DNA of 64,000 nt, taken from NCBI RefSeq assembly GCF_035084215.1, contig NW_027139666.1, positions 4,092,001-4,156,000 on the forward strand, written 5' to 3'. Shown here in pieces: positions 15,142 through 57,695 of the stretch. A program made the translations under genes and the position numbers. Origin of the DNA: Heptranchias perlo (Eukaryota). How positions within the stretch are numbered: the stretch's first letter is position 1; every line of letters starts with the position of its first letter. The notes under the pieces are model-generated. The model saw only the letters and a list, made by a program, of their open reading frames with translations, was not told the origin of the DNA and ran no database searches.

Positions 15142-15513
<372 letters not shown>

Positions 15514-35431: not shown

Positions 35432-35881
<450 letters not shown>

Positions 35882-40185: not shown

Positions 40186-40605
40186 ATATTTATTCTCTCA
40201 GATTACATTATGGTGTTCAATATTGTAGCTTTAATATCTTAATGTTTAAATAGTTTTTATCAATATGGATACACTTTAGGATTTGATGCTGGAGGTTTAA
40301 ATCAGATAATTTGTGTGCTTTTTGGACAACTATTAAATCTGTATCTCTGAGTAATATTGTGAATGATAATGATAATGTATCTTTCAAACTGACATTTTTG
40401 AATTGGTATATAATGTGCAGATCAGTCTGCACGAAATGAATTGATACTGCATCTTTAATTTTTGTTTTGTATGATTTTTGGACTTGTGTGTCTGTGATAC
40501 TGTGTCATTAAATCTCTTGATGTGGAGATGCCGGTGATGGACTGGGGTTGACAATTGTAAACAATTTTACAACACCAAGTTATAGTCCAGCAATTTTATT
40601 TTAAA

Positions 40606-40644
40606 TTCACAAGCTTTCGGAGATTTTCTCCTTCCTCAGGCAAA
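40606..40644 (-). ncRNA. Minimal hammerhead ribozyme motif
   Basis: Reverse complement TTTGC-CTGAGGA-A-GGAG-AAAAT-CTCC-GAAA-GC-TT-GTGAA. Confidence 0.7.
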
Positions 40645-40895
40645 TGTTTCAAGATCTCCTTGAAGCCTACGCATTTATACATATTGAACAATAATAAATG
40701 GTGTTTACAGACTGCCCCTGCAACTGCCCGTTGCCAAGGCAATCACCGTGTTCAGACAGAGAGGTGTTACCTGCAGAACCTCCGAATACACATTCAATAA
40801 AAAAACAAACAGGGAAAAAAAAACAGAGAAAAAAAAACACAGAGAGAGGCAGAAACATCCGGAAGGCAGAGAGAGCCAGCAAATGACCCATTATA

Positions 40896-41890
40896 TTAAA
40901 AACAGATAACATTTGTTCGCTGGTGGGGTAACGTGTAGCGTGACATGAACCCAAGATCCCGGTTGAGGCCGTCCTCATGGGTGCGGAACTTGGCTATCAA
41001 TTTCTGCTCGACGATTTTGCGTTGTCGTGTGTCTCGAAGGCCGCCTTGGAGTACGCTTACCCGAAGGTCGGTGGATGAATGTCCATGACTGCTGAAGTGT
41101 TCCCCGACTGGGAGGGAACCCTCCTGTTTGGCGATTGTTGCGCGGTGTCCGTTCATCCGTTGTCGCAGCGTCTGCATGGTCTCGCCAATGTACCATGCTC
41201 TGGGGCATCCTTTCCTGCAACGTATGAGGTAGACAACGTTGGCTGAGTCACAGGAGTATGAACCATGCACCTGGTGGGTGGTGTCATCTCGTGTGATGGT
41301 GGTATCTGTGTCGATGATCTGGCATGTCTTGCAGAGGTTACCGTGGCAGGGTTGTGTGGCGTCGTGGACGCTGTTCTCTTGAAAGCTAGGTAGTTTGCTG
41401 CGAACGATGGTCTGTTTGAGGTTGGGTGGCTGTTTAAAGGCGAGTAGTGGAGGTGTGGGGATGGCCATAGCGAGGTGTTTGTCCTCATTGATGACATGTT
41501 GAAGGCTGCGGAGAACATGGCGTAGTTTCTCCGCTCCGGGGAAGTACTGGACGACAAAGGGTACTCTGTTGGTTGCGTCCCGTGTTAGTCTCCTGAGGAG
41601 GTCTATGCGATTTTTTGCTGTGGCCCGTCGGAACTGTCGATCGATGAGTCGAGCGTCATATCCCGTTCTTACTAGGGCGTCTTTCAGCGTCTGTAGGTGT
41701 CCATCGCGTTCCTCCTCGTCTGAGCAGACCCTGTGTATTCGCAGGGCCTGTCCATAGGGGATGGCCTCTTTGACGTGGTTAGGGTGGAAGCTGGAAAAGT
41801 GGAGCATCGTGAGGTTGTCCGTGGGCTTGCGGTAGAGTGAGGTGCTGAGGTGCCCGTCTTTGATGGAGATTCGTGTGTCCAAGAAAGAAA
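40896..41890 (-). CDS. Penelope-like ORF fragment: RT C-terminus and GIY-YIG endonuclease (5'-truncated)
   Basis: FLDTRISIKDGHLSTSLYRKPTD...HP..K.AIPYGQALRIHRVCS...C..C..C...NVVYLIRC...WYIGET...R.R.NGH...GEHF...E..LI......GLN. Confidence 0.88.
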
Positions 41891-41891
41891 C

Positions 41892-42667
41892 TAAGAACGG
41901 GATATGACGCTCGACTCATCGATCGACAGTTCCGACGGGCCACAGCAAAAAATCGCATAGACCTCCTCAGGAGACTAACACGGGACGCAACCAACAGAGT
42001 ACCTTTTGTCGTCCAGTACTTCCCCGGAGCGGAGAAACTACGCCATGTTCTCCGCAGCCTTCAACATGTCATCAATGAGGACAAACACCTCGCTATGGCC
42101 ATCCCCACACCTCCACTACTCGCCTTTAAACAGCCACCCAACCTCAAACAGACCATCGTTCGCAGCAAACTACCTAGCTTTCAAGAGAACAGCGTCCACG
42201 ACGCCACACAACCCTGCCACGGTAACCTCTGCAAGACATGCCAGATCATCGACACAGATACCACCATCACACGAGATGACACCACCCACCAGGTGCATGG
42301 TTCATACTCCTGTGACTCAGCCAACGTTGTCTACCTCATACGTTGCAGGAAAGGATGCCCCAGAGCATGGTACATTGGCGAGACCATGCAGACGCTGCGA
42401 CAACGGATGAACGGACACCGCGCAACAATCGCCAAACAGGAGGGTTCCCTCCCAGTCGGGGAACACTTCAGCAGTCATGGACATTCATCCACCGACCTTC
42501 GGGTAAGCGTACTCCAAGGCGGCCTTCGAGACACACGACAACGCAAAATCGTCGAGCAGAAATTGATAGCCAAGTTCCGCACCCATGAGGACGGCCTCAA
42601 CCGGGATCTTGGGTTCATGTCACGCTACACGTTACCCCACCAGCGAACAAATGTTATCTGTTTTTAA
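41892..42667 (+). CDS. Inverted duplicate of the Penelope ORF 3' part (GIY-YIG domain), no true start
   Basis: Protein identical to the minus-strand frame from RTGYDARL onward. Confidence 0.8.
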
Positions 42668-42918
42668 TATAATGGGTCATTTGCTGGCTCTCTCTGCCTT
42701 CCGGATGTTTCTGCCTCTCTCTGTGTTTTTTTTTCTCTGTTTTTTTTTCCCTGTTTGTTTTTTTATTGAATGTGTATTCGGAGGTTCTGCAGGTAACACC
42801 TCTCTGTCTGAACACGGTGATTGCCTTGGCAACGGGCAGTTGCAGGGGCAGTCTGTAAACACCATTTATTATTGTTCAATATGTATAAATGCGTAGGCTT
42901 CAAGGAGATCTTGAAACA

Positions 42919-42957
42919 TTTGCCTGAGGAAGGAGAAAATCTCCGAAAGCTTGTGAA
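42919..42957 (+). ncRNA. Minimal hammerhead ribozyme motif
   Basis: TTTGC-CTGAGGA-A-GGAG-AAAAT-CTCC-GAAA-GC-TT-GTGAA. Confidence 0.7.
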
Positions 42958-44565
42958 TTTAAAATAAAATTGCTGGACTATAACTTGGTGTTGTAAAATT
43001 GTTTACAATTAAATCTCTTAACATGAGTATATTATAAACTGGTATCTAATGTGTTTCTCAGGTTATACTGTCACAGCATTTCTCAATCTGATATTGTACA
43101 TGAGTTTTGGACTTGCAATTTGTATCCGAATGATGCACTATTCGAATGAATAAGGCATGTATTGAACTCACGTGTGTGTGAGAGTTCTGGGCTAGTATTC
43201 AATTTGAATCTCGGGGTATCTGGTATTTAATTCACGGCTAATATTGCCATTTTGTGAAATTGACAATCTGAAAACGAGACTTTGGACTGGAATTTTTGTA
43301 TCTACCTGTCAGCGGGACTGAGTTCGGGAGAAATGGAACAGTGTCTGCCTCACCTCCTCTGTTTGGCTGTTGGATTGAAAATGTGTCTCTGGAACTTGGG
43401 ATCAGTGTGGGACTGACTACTTCTGCTGTCTGAGACTGTGGAACTGATGACCTGTCTGTGTCTCTGTGCTCTGAGAGTGATAATATACATACTGTGTGTG
43501 AGAAGGCGCTGGCTGCACTGTTCCTTTGCCTCGGGTGGAGGAAACGTCACATTCACTCTGGCTCGTTCAAGGGTTTGCCTGTAGAAAGAAACGTATCGCA
43601 TGTAACTCAAGAACAGGTGAGGTAGAAAATACGTAACTGTTAACCCATCAACACATCCAGTGGCACATTTGGACAGGGAAACTACTGGCAAACAGGTACA
43701 GAATGGTCTGATTACGATCCTACACTTTCACGTGAGGCATCTACACCCGCAGTGTCAATCTAACTCGGACATCGATACAGGGAGAGGCTCGGGCACGCGT
43801 GCAAAATACAAGAGATGCAAGTTTTCATTTCCGATATAGTATCAGCTTGGCACTGTTGGAAATATTTTCATCTCTAATGAACCAGACTCGGATCAAATAA
43901 AGTTTGTCTATTTTTCCTCTCCAGTTATTGTGACAGAGGCTGTTTCACTGTAACTCGCACGAATAGAACTTAAGTGTTTTCGCTCAGCGCTATAATCAGA
44001 AGCAGTGTAAAACTTAGTGTCACATTCACTGCGGTACTCGTCACTGACACAGGAACAGACTGACAGGGACAGAATAAATCCCTCACTCAGCCAATAACAG
44101 ACAAATTTCATTCACTGATTCAGCAATCGCTGACACAATAATCAACACATCCGTCACCTCCTGGCGGACAAATCTGGGTATTGGAAGTCAGACCGAGTCA
44201 GTGTTCTGGGAGGATGAGACTGTAAATAACACTTACAATAATGGCCGCAACACAATAGAGTGCCTCTTGTTGCCGATGATCAAACTCACCTGTTATTTCT
44301 GTATTCCACCCTCCCAGTTTAATGAACTGATTATTTTGTGCCTCATTTCCGATACAATCTGTAAATTTCAACCTATTGGAGGTTGGCGACATCTACTGTC
44401 CAGAAGCGAGTATTGAACAGATTATTTGTATTCAACAATATATCGTTAGTTTCTAACTAAGCGATTTATTATTAAATTAAGCTCTGACTCGCTTCAGCCC
44501 TTTCATAGATACAGTGGGTGGCTCTGAAAAGAGCCTTTGGGTTATCAGATTAAATCTTGACCGGT

Positions 44566-44984
<419 letters not shown>

Positions 44985-50100: not shown

Positions 50101-50550
50101 ATCTGTATCTGTCATCTCTGGTACCATGTGTGAGTGTAGGATTCGCTCTGTGTCTGTCAGTCTCTAGTATTGTATGTGAGTTTGGGATTCCTTCTGCATC
50201 TGTCAGTCTCTGGTACTGTATCTGAGTGTGAGATTCATTCTGTATTTGTATGTAATTATTCTCTCAGATTGCATTATTGCGTTCAAAATTGTAGCTTTAA
50301 TATCTTCATGTTTAGGTCATATTTCTCATTATTTAACTGGTAAATATGGGTACACTTTAGGATTTGACGCTGTAGGTTTTAATCAGATAATTTGTGTGCT
50401 TTTTGAACTACTATTAAATCTGTATCTCTGTAAGTACAATTGTGAATGATAATGTACATTTCAAATTGATATGGTGACACTTTTCAAATGGTATATAATG
50501 TGTAGCTCAGTCTGCACTAATAGAATTGATACTGTATCTATAAATCTCAT
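47170..50550 (-). repeat. Inverted 46-bp/82-bp satellite region with internal duplication (~48370-49030 / 49100-49690)
   Basis: Reverse-complement monomers of both satellites. Confidence 0.85.
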
Positions 50551-53500
50551 ACTATGAGTGTATTATAAACTGATATCTAATTTGTTTCTCAGGTTACACT
50601 GTCACAGCATTTCTCAATCTGATACTGTACATGAGTTTTGGACTGGTATGGAATTTGTATCACATGATACATGCAATATCCATTCGAATAGTGTATTAAA
50701 CTCACATGTGTGTGTGAGTTCTGGACTAGTATTCAATTGGAATCTCAGGGTACATTATTGGGATAGATTATGTACCTTCCAATCGGGTGCCATGTGTGAT
50801 TTCGATCTGTTATTTAATTCGTACCTAATGTTGCCCTATTGTGAGATTGACACAGTGCCTTTCAATCTGATAGTGTGAACTTGGACTGGGATTTTTGTAT
50901 CTGCCTGTCAACGGGACTCAGCTCGGGGGAAATGGAACAGCGTCTGCCTCACCTGCTCTGTTTGAACGTTGGATTGAAAAAGTGCCGGTGGAACTTGGGA
51001 TCAGTGTGGGACTGACTGCTTCTACTGTCTGAGACTGTGGAACTGATGACCTGTCTGTGTCTCTGTGCGCTGTGTGTGATAATGTACTTACTGTGTGGGA
51101 GAAGGAGTTGGCTGCACTGTTCCTTGTGCCTCGAGTGGAGGAAACATAACACTGATTCTGGGTCCTTCAAGGATTTGCCTGTCGGAAGAAATTTATCTCT
51201 TGTAACTCAAGAACCAGTGAGGCAGAAAATACAAAAGTGTTCGAATTAATACCCATGTCAACGATTATTTTGAATATCCACAAATGAAAACCAGTGATAC
51301 AAACAGTGTCAGTGTCTGACTCCACTGCAGTACTGCAGCACTCAGCTTCTGCACACCAGGTGTGTTGGGCAATTTTACAACAATTTAGTGACATCCAGAC
51401 ACAACCCAACCCCTGCACTGATCCATGAATGGGACAACCCGATGGGGCAGGGACCTTTGTACAGGTCAGGTTTCTAATCCCCTCTCCCATGGGACTTACC
51501 GTTCAAATGAAAGCAAACAGCCGTTGTTTAAAATGTGTCCTTCACACTTCCCACCTGGTGCCTGCAAGAGATGCTCTTTGTGTAACTCCCCACATCCTTA
51601 CTGTCCGGCTCTGTTTCCACTCTTCACTGTCCAATAACAACAAACAGGGTGAGACTGGAACGAAACCAGGAACATTCACTACTGGTTTGGGGAGAGAAAG
51701 CAGCAATGATTTTAAATAGCAGGTTCTTCCCATTCTCTCTCCGTTCCCCTGGACACACCCGGTACACACACAGCCCGAGAATGACCTCTCCCTTCCCCCG
51801 CTCACTCCATGTTCCGGGACCAGTTCCTGATCCACTCCGCCTCATACAAACAAACCCCCGGACTCCCCCTGAACTTCCCCCGGACTCAATGCCGATCTCT
51901 GAGTCCATCTGCGGACACGGTCCCGAAGCGATGAGCTGCTGTAACGAGGCTGCTCTTTGCTCCCTTCCCCCGGGGGCCGTGATCTCTCCATTCCCGGCTG
52001 TTTTAAACCATCTTCTTTCGCTCACTGAGGGAATGGCGCCCACAGGCCGAGCTGGGGGAGGGAACGCGCATGCGCTCTTCTGCTCACCAACAACCAGCCC
52101 TGGGGGCGGAGCTGAGTCACGCATGCGCAGATATCTGGTTTCAATCCCAATGCAAAAATCGATGGAAACTTTCCCCAATTGGAATTTTTCAGAGTCTGAG
52201 CAAAGGAAGTGGGTCTGGGGGAAAGGTCAGAGGGAATGGGGTCCACAGGCAGTGCAGGAACAGGCACCAGAATGGGAAAGAGATGGGATTCCACCAGTGC
52301 CTAACGCTGGAATCCAGACTGACTTTACAATCTCTAACTATGAAACTAGATGTTTCCATCCCTGCTGTTTCTCTCGGTATCTTTTGATGGTAAAGAGCCT
52401 TTCATGGATAAAGTGGGCGGCTGATAAATGGCTTTGATTCATTCTTGCACTCTTTACTGATAAAACTGAAGCGTGAGGAAGAAACTGGGGCGGTGGGAGG
52501 ATTTCTCAAACCAATCCTGGAGAAAAAAGGAGGAAAGAGTGAGTCGATGTGTTTGTTGGGATCGTGTAGGATTAATATCTGACAGCACTGGTCCCAGATT
52601 AATTTAATCAGAATGCAACTCTCGATTACTGAGAGTAATACTGAACGTCCCTGAGCTGCAAAACAGAATAAAGTACAACAGGCAAGAGAGGGTTAAATGT
52701 GGCCCATTGTTTTTGTCACTCTCTGAACTGAGTGTGGGATTAATGGTGTGTCTGCCTCTGGTGCAATATCAGTGAGAGATGAGATTGCATCTTTTGTCTC
52801 TCCAATGGGATCTTTCTGGATAAAACTAAACTTTACAGGTTAGTCTGCAACTGATACTGTGGCACTTTGTCTCTCCGTGTTCTCTCTCACCGTGTCTGTC
52901 TCCCTGTCTCCCTCTATCTGTCTCTCTCTGGTGCTGTATATGAATGTGGGATGCTGCTATTGAGCTTGATATGAACACACTGATAGGAAGTGTACGACTG
53001 TCAGTGTGTGTTTGTCTCTCTGTTGTGCTGGACATGAAGGTGGGATACTGTCTGACATAAAACAGAGAGAATGGGTTGTCCGGGCCGGGCCGCAGTGTAA
53101 CCGGGGATGTGTTCGGCTTCAGTCCCAGTTCATGGTCATTTCTTTTTCACAGATTCAGGGTGAGAGTCTCTGTGAGACGGTACCACTAGCGGAGAAACAT
53201 CGCGTCTCAACTCAAACCCCAACACATGAGATTCTCGAAATCAGCTAGAATAAAGTGTTTGTAAACTGCTGAACTCGTCCGGGAGGGGATGTGTGGGGAG
53301 ATAGAATCGGGGGAGTCTGGGACTGAAATGGAAGGAGGCGGGTTGACTTGTAATAGAAGGGACTGTATTTAGGCAGGAATATGACTGACTGTTAATTGTA
53401 ACGGGGCTTATTTAAAAGCTCCGGGTTTCTGGAAATCCTTGAATATGAAGTCCGAGTCTGTAAGGGTTTGTCCAGAGCGCTGTGTTTCGGTTCTATTATC

Positions 53501-54129
53501 GATAAACGGTTTGAAATTGGCGGGTGGAGAAAGCTGGAGGTGGAGCTGGAAGATCAGAGGCCGCTCTCTGCTCTGTCTGTCACTCTTTCACCTCCACTCC
53601 CGCCCTCTCTGTTTAATCCCTTACATGGAAGCAACGCGGGTAGTTGGACTCCAAGCACGGTTGACAAGTCAACAAGACGAAAGGCGAGTAATGTTTCTGA
53701 TCTCCTGGGCACCAGGTAATTCACTGTCATTTGTTTCTGTACAGAGTTACATTTCAGTGATTCCCCAGTGTGTTTGATGCGTTATTTAAATAATCCAACA
53801 AAATATAACAGAAACGGAGCGAAGCGCTGAATCCCAAAGATGTAGAAAGGTTAGTCGAACAGTTCTGGTGATGCCTTACGAGCCCAGCATGGCAACTATT
53901 TTCAATAAATACAAGAAATCTGGTGATGTTTGGACTGGGGTTCATAAGTCACCGTTTAAAGTACCGGACTGTGGTCGGTTCCCCGACTCCAGTCCCATTA
54001 ATACCCCATCTCGTCTACACCGAGACAAAAGAAGCTCAAAGTAACACTGGTCGCATGATATCAGCGTCTCCTTCAGTCAGTAACCAGTCTTTTTACACAT
54101 TCAGTGGGTGGATCTGAACATGAGCCTTT

Positions 54130-55325
54130 ACATCGAGTTACATCGAAACCAAGGTACAGAAACAGGCCATTCGGCCGAATTGGTCTGTGACGGTTTTCAT
54201 GCTCCACGTGAGCCTCCTCCTTCCTTACTTCATCGAACTCGATTAAAATACCCTTCTATTCCTTTCTCCCTCATGTCCTTGTCTATCTTCCCCTTAAATG
54301 CCCCTATGTTATTTTCCTCAACGAATCCTTGGGTAGCGAGTTCCACATTCGTCCCAATCTTTGGGTAAAGCAGTTTCTCCTGAATTCCCTATTGGATTTA
54401 TTAGCGACTATTTTATATTCATTACCTGAAGTGTTGGACTCCCCACAAGTGGAATCATTTTCCCTGCGTCTCCCCTTTCAAACCTTATCATTATCTTGAA
54501 GACTTCTATCATTTCAACCCTCAGCCTTCTCTTTTCTAGTGAAATGAGCCCCAGCCTGTTCAACATTTCCTGATAAGAATATCCTCTCATTTCTGGTATC
54601 ACCTTTGTGAATCTTTTTTGCACCTTCTCCAATCCCTCTCCGTCCTTTCTATAACATGGAGACCAGAACTGTGCACAATACTCCAAGTGTGGTCTAACCA
54701 AGGTCCCATACAATTTTAACATAACTTCTTTGTTTTCAAATCTATCCCTCTCGAAATGAATCTTAGTGTTTGATTTGTCTTTTATGACCTTATTGAGCTG
54801 CGTCGCTACTTCTTGTAATTTTTATATCTGTACCCCTAGATCCCTTTGCTCCTCTATCCCGTTTAGACTCCTATTATCCAAGCAGTGTGTGACCTTCTTA
54901 TTCTCCATTCTGCAAGTTTATTAATGTCCTCTTGCAATTTGCTACATTCTTCCTTTGTATTAAATACATCCCCCAATTTGGAGTCGTCGACACATTTTGA
55001 AATTGTACTTCCGATTCCCGTTTCAAAATTGTCAATGTAAATTGTGAAGAACAGTAGTCCCAGCAACTGGAACATCACTTCCCATCTTTTGCCAGTCTGA
55101 GTAGCGACTCTTAACCTCTATTCTCGTTTTTCTGCTTTGTCGCCAGCTTACGATCCATTCTACCACATGTCCCCTGACTCCACGTGCTCTGAAATTAGCC
55201 ATGAGTCTACAACGCGAAACCTTATCGAAGGCCTTCGGAAAATCCAAATATATTTAATCTAATGCTTTAAACTTGTATTCAATTTCTGTTCCTTCTTCAA
55301 AGATTTCAATAAGGTTGGTCCTGTC
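54130..55325 (-). mobile_element. Old CR1 RT-to-3'-end fragment
   Basis: Frames DFPKAFDKV..., SKCVDDSKLG..., LYGTLVRPHLEYCAQFWSP...; 3' UTR near 54140-54300. Confidence 0.85.
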
Positions 55326-55356
55326 CTTTGGGATATCAGATTAAATCTTTGCCGCT

Positions 55357-55740
55357 TTACTTGCTCTTGGAGCTGACAATGCTGGTTTTCTTCGGCAGCA
55401 GCACGGCCTGGATATCTGGCGACACCCTGAGCGATGGTCACCCGTCCCAGCAGCTTGTGGAGCTCCTCCTCGTTGTGGATGGCCAGCTGCAGGTGTCTGG
55501 AGATGATGCGGGTCTTCGTGTTGTCGTGGGCTACGTTGGCGGCCAGCTCGAGGATTTCAGCCGTCAGATACTCGAGCACAGCAGCCAGATAGAACGGGGC
55601 TCCGGCACCCACATTCAGCGGATTTCCACTTTCGCAGGAGCATTTGAACACGGCCCACAGGGAACTACAGTACCGGCCCGGGATGAGCGAGGCTTGGCCT
55701 TGGCCCGAGCTTTAACGCCGGTTTTTCCTCTTCCAGACAT
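55357..55740 (-). pseudogene. H2A: Histone H2A pseudogene (mirror of 1416-1802)
   Basis: Frameshifting deletions near 55420 and 55612; 3' UTR breaks at CCCAAAGG and joins CR1. Confidence 0.92.
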
Positions 55741-55839
55741 TTCCACAATCTCACAAATACGTTAATGCAGAATAAAGAACTCTCCTGCTCTCGCCCTTCT
55801 TATACCTTCTGGAGGAGTACAGTGGGGGCATTTGTAGTG

Positions 55840-56025
55840 GGTCTCTCTCAGATTGTTTACACTGCCCGCTCACCCTCACTGATATTCTATCTTTCAACTG
55901 CTGTAATATTGTCCTTTAGCAATATTGCTGCTCTCCCTCCTTTCCCTACTTCTCTGTCATTTCTAAAGATCTTATAGACTTGAATATTAAGCAGCCAGTC
56001 GTGCCCAGCTGGTAGTCCGGTCTCC
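55840..56025 (-). mobile_element. Degenerate CR1 endonuclease-region fragment (mirror of 1140-1320)
   Basis: Reverse-complement homology to 1140-1320. Confidence 0.65.
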
Positions 56026-56125
56026 GTAATCATTTAATGTAATTATTTAACCTCACGAAATGGATGATGCGGCCGAAAAACGTGACGGATTACTGGATAG
56101 TGTGTAATTTCCATTGGTTGGGGGG

Positions 56126-56162
56126 TTTGCGACATCTACTGGGCGGAGACGTGAACTACAAA
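56126..56162 (-). promoter_or_regulatory. Predicted CTCF site (right boundary, reverse)
   Basis: Reverse complement TTGTAGTTC-ACGTCT-CCGCCCAGTAGATGTCGC. Confidence 0.6.
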
Positions 56163-56276
56163 AGAGCGAGAAATGGTCAGTCGGAAACCGGTTCAAATGA
56201 AAAACAAAATCCAACCGCTTGCGGTGTCTGTTCAGGGTGTGATGTTTATCAACTATTTTATGATGATGGATGGTCA

Positions 56277-56348
56277 GCGATGGTGGTATAGTGGTGAGCA
56301 TAGTTGCCTTCTAAGCAATTGATTCGGGTTCGATTCCCGGCCATCGCA
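56277..56348 (+). tRNA. tRNA gene with Gly(TCC) body and TCT (Arg) anticodon; alloacceptor or young pseudogene
   Basis: GCGATGGTGGTATAGTGGTGAGCATAGTTGC-CT-TCT-AA-GCAATTGATTCGGGTTCGATTCCCGGCCATCGCA. Cloverleaf pairs and A/B boxes are intact. Confidence 0.85.
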
Positions 56349-56569
56349 ATTAAGTGTTCTCATTAGTTTATTTCCTTCAGAAACTCTTAAGTATTGAATT
56401 TGATGCAGTTCAGTTGGATATTGTTTCCAAAACATAAACGAGTGTAGGTATAGTAAAATGATTTCAGCCTTCATTTATTTTCCCTATAGAAGGAATAGAG
56501 GAAAAACATGCTGGAAATAGTGAGCTGCAAAGTGTCTGATGAGAGTTAGGATGGCAAATGAAATGGTAG

Positions 56570-57695
56570 CCTTTATTGTAAGGGTTTTGGAATATAAGAT
56601 TAAGGAGGTCTTGCTGCAATTGCAGTATGAGGAAATATTGTGTAAAATTGGCCTATATTCTGTGGAGATAGAAGAATGAGAGGTAATCTCATTGAAACGT
56701 ATAACATTCTTAGACGGCTTGACAGGGTAGATGCTGAGAGGCTGATTCCCCTCGCTGGAGAGTCAAGAACTGGAGCTCATAGTCACAAGATAAGGAGTCG
56801 GCCATTTAGGACCGATATGAGAAAAATTTCTGCACTCAAAGGGTTATGAAACTTTGGAATTCTCTACCCCTGAGGGCTGTGGATGCTCAGTCGTTGAGTA
56901 TATTCAAAGCTGAGATCGATAGATTTTTGGACTCTCGGGGAATCAAGGAATATGGGGATCGGGAGGGAAAGTGGAGTTGAGGTCGAAGATCAGCCCTGAT
57001 CTGATTGAATGGCAGAGAGGGCTCGTGGGGCCGTATGGCCTACTCCTGCTCCTATTTCTTACGTTCTTATGTAGAGAGCCTTATATCCAAGTGTGCTGAT
57101 GACACTAAGTTAGGTGGCACAATTAACATTATAGATTGGAGCAGAAAGTTGCAAAGGGAAATTGATAGATTAAGTGAGTGGGCAAAACTGTGGCAGATGG
57201 AGTTCAACGTGGGGAAGCGTGAGGTCATCCAATTTGGACCATAAAAAATAGATCAGAGTATTTTCTAAATGCGGAGAAGTTAGGAACTGTGGGGGAGGAG
57301 AGAGATTTGTGGACCAAATGCAGAATTCACTAAAAATGCAAAAAAAAGTTAAAATGGTAATGGAATTTTGATTTTTATCTCAAGTGATCCGGAATAAAAA
57401 GGAGTGGAATTTATGTCACAGTTATACGGAGCTCTGGTTAGACCTCATTTAAAGTATTGTATTCAGTTCTGCGCACCGCACCTCTGGCAGGATAAGAACA
57501 GATGAAATATGAGCAGCAGGTGGCCTTAGGGCCCTTCGAGCCTGCTCCGCCATTCAATAGATCATGGCTGATTTTGTACCTCCACACCACTTTACTGCCC
57601 GTTCCCCATATCCCTTGATTTCCTTGTCCAAAAATCAATCAAACTCAATCTTGAATACATTAAACGACTGAACATCCACAGCCCTCTGGGGTGGA
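56570..57695. mobile_element. Cluster of CR1 fragments (+ 56570-57070 3' end, + 57070-57490, - 57490-57695)
   Basis: CR1 3' UTR ...ggcctactcctgctcctatttcttacgttcttatg; frame SKCADDTKLGG..WAKLWQMEFNVGK. Confidence 0.8.

What the first reader, a model, noticed from the sequence alone, without database searches (positions are those of the whole stretch)
56277..56348. Glycine-body tRNA with a UCU anticodon and a compensatory stem change
Seen: relative to its mirror paralog tRNA-Gly(TCC) at 767-838, the anticodon is TCT. The C28-G42 pair is replaced by T28-A42 (both partners changed), the T-stem keeps a T-G wobble, and the acceptor stem and A/B boxes are intact. Established: GlyRS reads the acceptor stem plus C35/C36, ArgRS typically uses A20 (absent here), and tRNA-Gly(UCU) decodes AGR as Gly in ascidian mitochondria. 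Inference: either a possible Arg-to-Gly mistranslating alloacceptor or a locus kept only as a TFIIIC site. Against function: all changes are transitions, and the nearby T4 terminator of the paralog is lost.
Basis: partly seen in the sequence, partly recalled or inferred. Interest (0 to 1): 0.7.

Follow-up and report, generated by a model that had tools for sequence, protein, structure and literature searches.

The report
Drifting glycine tRNA copy, arginine anticodon
This is one of more than 340 copies of a glycine tRNA gene in a histone and tRNA gene cluster; it has picked up a one-letter anticodon change to an arginine anticodon and is likely a poorly charged, decaying passenger, not a working code-changing tRNA.

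Summary
The gene is real: a glycine-type body (67/72 to the family consensus, 44-45/72 to true tRNA-Arg) with a TCT anticodon. Three duplicates 2-3% apart carry TCT, so it is not a base-call error. It belongs to a family of at least 344 tRNA-Gly(TCC) copies, in which C36T arose at least twice and is no commoner than other single changes. The 'compensatory' T28-A42 pair is shared with six TCC sisters, so it predates the anticodon change. All 12 TCC sisters in its 15-copy clade have broken stems or boxes, and the neighbouring H2A is frameshifted. The lost-terminator argument fails. C36 is a GlyRS determinant, A20 is absent, and at least 26 true Arg(TCT) genes compete. Best reading: a near-neutral, poorly charged copy (0.72). 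Against it: this copy's stems and A/B boxes are intact, and the clade's rate does not differ from other copies. It resembles the classic E. coli AGA-to-Gly suppressor and known human anticodon variants. Read support and expression were not tested. A word search of earlier scan notes found no match.

The parts
56277..56348 (+). tRNA gene with a tRNA-Gly(TCC) body and TCT anticodon; 5 changes from the family consensus (C28T, C36T, G42A, C48T, C49T, Sprinzl numbering)
   Evidence: 67/72 identical to the Gly consensus, 44-45/72 to 3 Arg(TCT) genes of this genome
56310..56312 (+). Anticodon TCT; 56312 is the C36T change
   Evidence: same base in two sister loci, L002 and L003
56304..56318 (+). T28 (56304) and A42 (56318), the swapped anticodon-stem pair; shared by 9 loci, 6 with TCC
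56323..56324 (+). T48 (partner of G15; off-pattern G15-U48) and T49 (new U49-G65 wobble); T48 marks the 15-copy clade
   Evidence: pattern of the 15-48 pair from PMC9023262
56367..56373 (+). T3AT3 run at +19, a likely non-canonical Pol III terminator; first T4 at 56478-56481
   Evidence: motif class tested in PMC3141230
55393..55740 (-). Frameshifted histone H2A pseudogene, divergent from the tRNA, with no histone stem-loop; same frame breaks in the sister loci
   Evidence: tblastn in four pieces over three frames; no Histone3 match here
767..838 (-). Paralogous tRNA-Gly(TCC) with its own C32T change
50517..57450 (.). Repeat unit holding the H2A pseudogene and the tRNA; inverted, 80-86% identical in pieces to window 1-5564; 96-98% identical over 6.5-7.6 kb to three sister loci

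Best explanation
The locus is a copy of tRNA-Gly(TCC), amplified inside a histone-cluster repeat unit, that has gained a C36T anticodon change and is likely a near-neutral, poorly aminoacylated passenger. Shown: its lineage gained U48 first, then the T28-A42 swap while the anticodon was still TCC, then C36T, and TCT now stands in three duplicates. Inferred: C36U removes a GlyRS determinant and the body lacks A20 for ArgRS, so any transcript would be charged poorly by either enzyme. G15-U48 would further weaken the core. Dozens of true Arg(UCU) genes would outcompete it at AGA/AGG codons, so Gly-for-Arg errors would be negligible and selection would barely see the copy.
For: Family size: 262 copies with the canonical 26-nt arm and any anticodon, of which 255 TCC, 3 TCT and 4 TTT; 344 at up to one mismatch. 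C36T is 3 of 89 one-mismatch copies, the per-site mean being 3.4 (P=0.67). C36T arose at least twice (trio and L016 in separate clades). T28-A42 maps to the stem of a 9-copy clade, 6 TCC. All 12 of 12 TCC members of the 15-copy U48 clade have a broken pair or a lost invariant base, against 12 of 56 other sampled copies (copies are not independent, and the sample was chosen for an intact 26-mer). The clade's tRNA rate is 19 changes against 22.3 expected at the flank rate. The adjacent H2A is frameshifted. 26 of 30 loci fetched with a true Arg(TCT) query are intron-containing Arg(TCT) genes, out of 173 candidates, and 29 of 29 Arg-body loci examined have A20. Literature passages: C35/C36 are Gly determinants in yeast, bacteria and an archaeon, and A20 with C35 is the Arg set in mammals (PMC9976931); E. 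coli anticodon-mutant tRNA-Gly accept glycine up to four orders of magnitude less well (PMC11212642); the 15-48 pair is G-C or A-U in the metazoan families surveyed (PMC9023262).
Against: The three TCT copies are the only members of the clade with all stems and both boxes intact; 5 random transitions leave no such lesion in only 8% of draws. The clade's rate is not different from the other sampled copies (11 vs 36 changes on 46 sites, both 0.77 of the flank rate, P=0.55), so the rate test does not single it out as dead. A usable terminator is present. Anticodon changes are scarce in the family as a whole (3 of 89 against 10.3 expected, P=0.006), which implies that some are seen by selection. 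The flank mutation footprint of transcription is mixed: 0 changes in the inner 5' 20 nt (1.6 expected at background) but 5 in nt 21-40. [quoted passage not shown]
Confidence: 0.72

Rival explanations
1. The gene is transcribed and weakly glycylated, and acts as a low-level natural missense suppressor that puts Gly at AGA/AGG codons, tolerated rather than selected.
For: Intact acceptor stem with G1-C72, C2-G71 and A73, intact A/B boxes, T3AT3 terminator. Three copies here plus one with an otherwise perfect body, L016. E. coli trpA36 suppressors work in vivo despite poor charging (PMC11212642). Only 1 further change in the trio against 2.4 expected (P=0.31).
Against: C36 lost; G15-U48 and U49-G65 added; at least 26 true Arg(TCT) genes; C36T not enriched; every TCC sister in the clade is damaged.
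Confidence: 0.15
2. The transcript is charged with arginine through C35/U36 and behaves as a poor, harmless extra tRNA-Arg(UCU): an early alloacceptor shift.
For: In yeast, position 20 is marginal and C35 plus U36/G36 are the main Arg determinants; A38 is listed for plants (PMC9976931). Alloacceptor shifts scale with tRNA gene redundancy (PMC3923123).
Against: A20 is absent, while 29 of 29 Arg-body loci examined have it; none of the other four changes creates A20; only 44-45/72 identity to Arg genes.
Confidence: 0.07
3. The locus is kept by selection as a TFIIIC/Pol III binding site or chromatin boundary in the histone cluster, whatever the RNA does.
For: A and B boxes are unchanged in L001-L004, and tRNA loci co-occur with histone clusters in elasmobranchs (bioRxiv 10.1101/2025.06.08.657570).
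Against: 11 of the 12 TCC sisters have lost G15, A14 or G53, so the boxes are not protected in this clade; the neighbouring histone gene is dead.
Confidence: 0.05
4. The T at 56312 is a sequencing or assembly error.
For: Read support was not obtained. The assembly does contain at least one exact duplication (C1317 pair, 0 mismatches in 9,001 nt).
Against: The same base stands in three loci whose flanks differ by 1.9-2.4% on two contigs.
Confidence: 0.01

Closest known systems
E. coli trpA36 missense suppressors (mutant tRNA-Gly inserting Gly at AGA); PMC11212642, passages read
   Same: Glycine tRNA whose altered anticodon reads the Arg codon AGA; GlyRS determinant hit, so charging is poor
   Different: Those were selected in the laboratory and shown to act. 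This is a nuclear vertebrate gene, one of hundreds, with four more changes and no evidence of activity
Human tRNA-Gly-TCC-2-6 position-36 variants (TCC to TCG Arg, TCC to TCA stop; allele frequency 0.006); PMC6779403, passages and Table 2 read
   Same: Same tRNA family, same position, Gly body with an Arg anticodon
   Different: Rare alleles of one locus there; here TCT stands at several paralogous loci of one assembly
Anticodon/isotype-mismatched tRNA genes in repeat-rich genomes; tRNAscan-SE 2.0, PMC8450103, passages read
   Same: [quoted passage not shown]
   Different: The copy is part of a segmental histone-tRNA repeat, not a tRNA-derived SINE
Alloacceptor anticodon shifts in eukaryotic genomes; PMC3923123, passages read
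   Same: Single-base anticodon change in a redundant family; shift numbers scale with tRNA gene number
   Different: No covarying change at 37, 72 or 73 and no cross-species orthologue shown
Ascidian mitochondrial tRNA-Gly(UCU) (recalled; primary papers not held; only a reference title seen)
   Same: Gly tRNA with a UCU anticodon
   Different: There the codons are fully reassigned in an organelle. Here AGA/AGG are served by an expanded true Arg(TCT) family

Membership tests
tRNA-Gly(TCC)-derived gene | Body matches the Gly family, not the Arg family | tested here: met
   67/72 vs 44-45/72; homologous flanks
Functional cytosolic tRNA | Cloverleaf stems and A/B boxes intact | tested here: met
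   No broken pair or lost invariant base among those scored; Rfam 60.5 bits
Functional cytosolic tRNA | 15-48 pair is G-C or A-U | tested here: not met
   G15-U48; rule from PMC9023262
Functional cytosolic tRNA | Pol III terminator downstream | tested here: met
   T3AT3 at +19, T4 at +130; class active in vitro in PMC3141230
Functional cytosolic tRNA | Purifying selection relative to flanks | tested here: inconclusive
   Clade 19 vs 22.3 expected; other copies 36 vs 46.8; no difference; trio 1 vs 2.4
Functional cytosolic tRNA | Transcribed, processed and charged | not testable with these tools
   No tRNA-seq data; flank footprint mixed
GlyRS substrate | G1-C72, C2-G71, third pair, A73 | tested here: met
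   Acceptor stem equals the consensus
GlyRS substrate | C35 and C36 | tested here: not met
   C35 kept, C36 is T; determinants from PMC9976931
ArgRS substrate (vertebrate type) | A20 | tested here: not met
   U20 here; A20 in 29 of 29 Arg-body loci
ArgRS substrate (vertebrate type) | C35 with U36 or G36 | tested here: met
   Anticodon TCT
Gly-at-AGA missense suppressor | Gly inserted at AGA/AGG in vivo | not testable with these tools
   Needs a reporter or proteomics
Codon reassignment (ascidian mitochondrial type) | Cognate tRNA-Arg(UCU) lost | tested here: not met
   At least 26 Arg(TCT) genes
Evolutionary alloacceptor shift | Orthologous locus conserved across species with covarying identity changes | not tested
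   No relatives' genomes are held; the stem swap predates the anticodon change

The most novel reading that the evidence does not exclude
A shark-type genome carries a small, recurrently arising set of intact glycine-body tRNA genes with a UCU anticodon (this trio and a perfect-body copy on contig C1370) that are expressed and glycylated well enough to put measurable Gly at AGA/AGG codons: a natural nuclear counterpart of the E. coli AGA suppressor, tolerated in a vertebrate.
Probability: 0.12. Interest if true: 0.55.

Novelty: new member of a known kind. Interest (0 to 1): 0.15.

Why it matters
If the best reading holds, it matters little: it is one more anticodon-mutant copy in a hugely redundant tRNA family, and a caution that tRNA counts by anticodon in such genomes include mislabelled bodies. 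If the gene were charged with glycine and active, it would show that vertebrates tolerate mistranslation from a family whose synthetase reads the anticodon, where the known cases are mainly Ala, Ser and Leu. It would also give a natural test of how much C36 matters to vertebrate GlyRS, which the 2023 identity review lists as unknown for higher eukaryotes.

Tried and rejected
Read support for 56312: not obtained, so it stays open. Rate test meant to show that the clade is specially decayed: failed, as other copies gave the same 0.77 ratio (62 rows used, L052 and L054 dropped for distant flanks, L045 and L065 for indels, and 8 more of the 74 rows had failed the flank-homology cut). Flank footprint of transcription: canonical clades show 2.0-2.7x in the inner 5' flank, the nine-copy clade 0x there but 3.2x at nt 21-40; inconclusive. 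Energy folding: even the consensus does not fold as a full cloverleaf, so it is uninformative beyond a weaker cloverleaf energy (-16.2 vs -20.8 kcal/mol). Order of C36T and C40A within L001-L004: unresolved, because informative sites conflict, as gene conversion would give. My first Arg(TCT) motifs found only 3-4 genes and suggested little competition; a DNA search with a real copy overturned that. 'Lost terminator' and 'compensation for the new anticodon' were rejected as above. Papers on the human GlyRS-tRNA structure and on the ascidian tRNA were not held. One paper search for a shark Gly/TCT mismatch listed nothing on it; that single search does not show absence from print. No supplements were read.

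Full report
Observation. A 72-nt tRNA lies at 56277-56348 (+) with anticodon TCT (Rfam 60.5 bits against 63.0 for the paralog). It differs from 767-838 (-) at six sites, all transitions. One of these, position 32, is a change in the paralog. Against the family consensus the gene has five changes in Sprinzl numbering: C28T, C36T, G42A, C48T and C49T. The body is glycine-type: 67/72 to the Gly consensus and 44-45/72 to three Arg(TCT) genes of the same genome, compared exon by exon.

Context. The window is a histone cluster: H1, H2A, H2B, H3 and H4 reading frames (named from their N-terminal sequences, by recall) and seven histone stem-loops, in a 3.25-Gb assembly. Earlier scan notes call the genome a shark (not checked by me). 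Co-occurring tRNA and histone clusters are described for elasmobranchs (bioRxiv 10.1101/2025.06.08.657570, passages). The tRNA sits in a repeat unit beside a divergent H2A. That H2A, at 55393-55740, is frameshifted and has no stem-loop, and so are those of the three closest sister loci as to frameshifts. The unit is 80-86% identical, inverted and in pieces, to window 1-5564 and 96-98% identical over 6.5-7.6 kb to three loci elsewhere.

Family census. 262 loci have the canonical 26-nt anticodon arm with any anticodon: 3 TCT, 4 TTT, none changed at 35 alone or 34 alone, hence 255 TCC. 344 match at up to one mismatch, so 89 carry one change, 3.4 per site. C36T, at 3, is average (P=0.67); the three anticodon sites together are under-represented (3 vs 10.3, P=0.006; copies are not independent). 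Two of those three TCT loci are an exact duplicate (0 mismatches in 9,001 nt) with a broken acceptor pair; the third, L016, has a perfect body. It falls in a different clade from the window's gene, so C36T arose at least twice. The expanded Arg(TCT) family likewise contains an anticodon mutant (L131, TTT).

Order of events. Nine loci share T28 and A42: three TCT (window, L002, L003) and six TCC. On a flank-only tree of 62 loci the pair maps to the stem of this nine-copy clade, and T48 to a 15-copy clade above it (bootstrap 100). C36T is confined to a four-copy subgroup whose flanks differ by 2.1-2.7%. The stem swap therefore happened in a TCC gene and is not an adaptation to the new anticodon. 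A compensated pair appears in 4-7% of draws of 4-5 random transitions. Whether C49T arose once above the 15-copy clade and reverted, or twice, is not resolved. Sites among L001-L004 conflict, as conversion would give, so the order of C36T and C40A is open too.

Signs of decay, and their limits. All 12 TCC members of the 15-copy clade have a broken stem pair or a lost invariant base (G53, G15, A14, pairs 3-70 and 30-40), against 12 of 56 other sampled copies. The sample was 60 of the 255 TCC loci, taken from the first 100 listed and conditioned on an exact 26-mer. The clade shows 19 tRNA changes against 22.3 expected at the flank rate. On the 46 unconditioned sites, however, the clade (11 vs 14.2) and the other copies (36 vs 46.8) have the same ratio (P=0.55); the other copies show constraint only on inner branches (10 vs 18.9). 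The whole family thus drifts at its tips, and this clade cannot be singled out by rate. The TCT trio are the only lesion-free members of their clade, which five random transitions give 8% of the time, and they gained 1 change against 2.4 expected (P=0.31). The flank footprint of transcription described in PMC6130373 (passages) is seen in the canonical clades (2.0-2.7x in the inner 5' flank) and is mixed in the nine-copy clade (0 changes vs 1.6 in nt 1-20; 5 vs 1.6 in nt 21-40).

Terminator. The first T4 is at +130, but 14 of 25 perfect copies also lack T4 within 100 nt and 22 of 25 have an interrupted T run within 30 nt. This gene has T3AT3 at +19, of a class that terminates human Pol III in vitro (PMC3141230, abstract and part 1 of section 14 read).

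Mechanism (inferred). C35 and C36 are GlyRS determinants in E. coli, T. thermophilus, yeast and an archaeon, with no higher-eukaryote data listed; A20 with C35 is the Arg set in mammals, while yeast relies on C35 and U/G36 (PMC9976931, passages). E. coli anticodon-mutant tRNA-Gly suppress AGA yet accept glycine up to four orders of magnitude less well (PMC11212642, passages). The 15-48 pair is G-C or A-U in the metazoan families surveyed, with A-A as the one listed exception (PMC9023262, passages); this gene has G-U. True competitors are many: 26 of 30 loci fetched are intron-containing Arg(TCT) genes, from 40 scored of 173 candidates, and 29 of 29 Arg-body loci examined carry A20. A transcript would likely be poorly charged and heavily outnumbered. 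I put this at 0.72, a tolerated weak Gly-at-AGR suppressor at 0.15, weak Arg charging at 0.07, a kept TFIIIC site at 0.05 and a base-call error at 0.01.

Comparison with what is known. It would work like the E. coli trpA36 suppressors if it worked at all. Position-36 variants of human tRNA-Gly-TCC-2-6, one to an Arg anticodon, are on record (PMC6779403, Table 2; also noted in PMC11415595, passages). [quoted passage not shown] The ascidian mitochondrial case is recalled only; it is a full reassignment, which the intact Arg(TCT) family rules out here. PMC4928997 and PMC4394434 were searched for passages and added nothing decisive.

Verdict. The feature is real and ordinary: a new member of a known kind, interest 0.15. 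Expression, charging, read support and cross-species conservation remain untested. If anyone tests the idea, L016 (G000:C1370:8207588-8207659), a perfect Gly body with only C36T and a T4 at +18, is the cleaner candidate.

Noticed in passing
L016 = G000:C1370:8207588-8207659 (+): Perfect tRNA-Gly consensus body with only C36T (TCT) and a T4 at +18; a cleaner candidate for Gly-at-AGA misreading than the window's gene, though its neighbouring H2A has two stops.
   Followed up: partly
L061, L071, L074, L101, L104, L108 (tRNA-Gly-TCC copies on C360, C921, C1061, C1317, C1349): 6 of 60 sampled copies carry A4G with U69, giving a G4-U69 pair. From recall, eukaryotic AlaRS can mischarge tRNAs with G4-U69, so these may be better mistranslation candidates (Ala at Gly codons). 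Not checked against a paper.
   Followed up: no
G000:C1317, positions about 1.3-4.3 Mb and 5.3-8.3 Mb: tRNA loci recur at a fixed offset of 3,999,424 nt, and one 9,001-nt pair has 0 mismatches: a multi-megabase assembly duplication or a very recent tandem duplication; it inflates copy counts.
   Followed up: partly
L045-L048 (C49 three copies, C922 one): Gly-body copies with a TTT (Lys) anticodon and an indel in the T arm.
   Followed up: partly
L123-L148 (C23 and several small contigs): Expanded intron-containing tRNA-Arg(TCT) subfamily (173 candidates); one copy, L131, has a TTT anticodon.
   Followed up: partly
window 40553-41671 and 41892-43010: Perfect 1,119-nt inverted repeat with a 220-nt spacer; very recent inversion-duplication or assembly artefact.
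   Followed up: no
window 1416-1802, 15142-15510, 44569-44952, 55393-55740: H2A copies in different states of decay beside an intact one at 35492-35881: 88% identical without stem-loop, one with a stop, one 96% identical with no ATG frame listed, one frameshifted.
   Followed up: partly
L063, L070, L091, L096: A12G copies turn the family's A12-C23 D-stem mismatch into a G-C pair (4 of 60; three also T16C).
   Followed up: no
window 839-860 region (5' flank of the paralog): The paralog at 767-838 has an 11-nt deletion in its inner 5' flank relative to the window's gene and other family copies.
   Followed up: no
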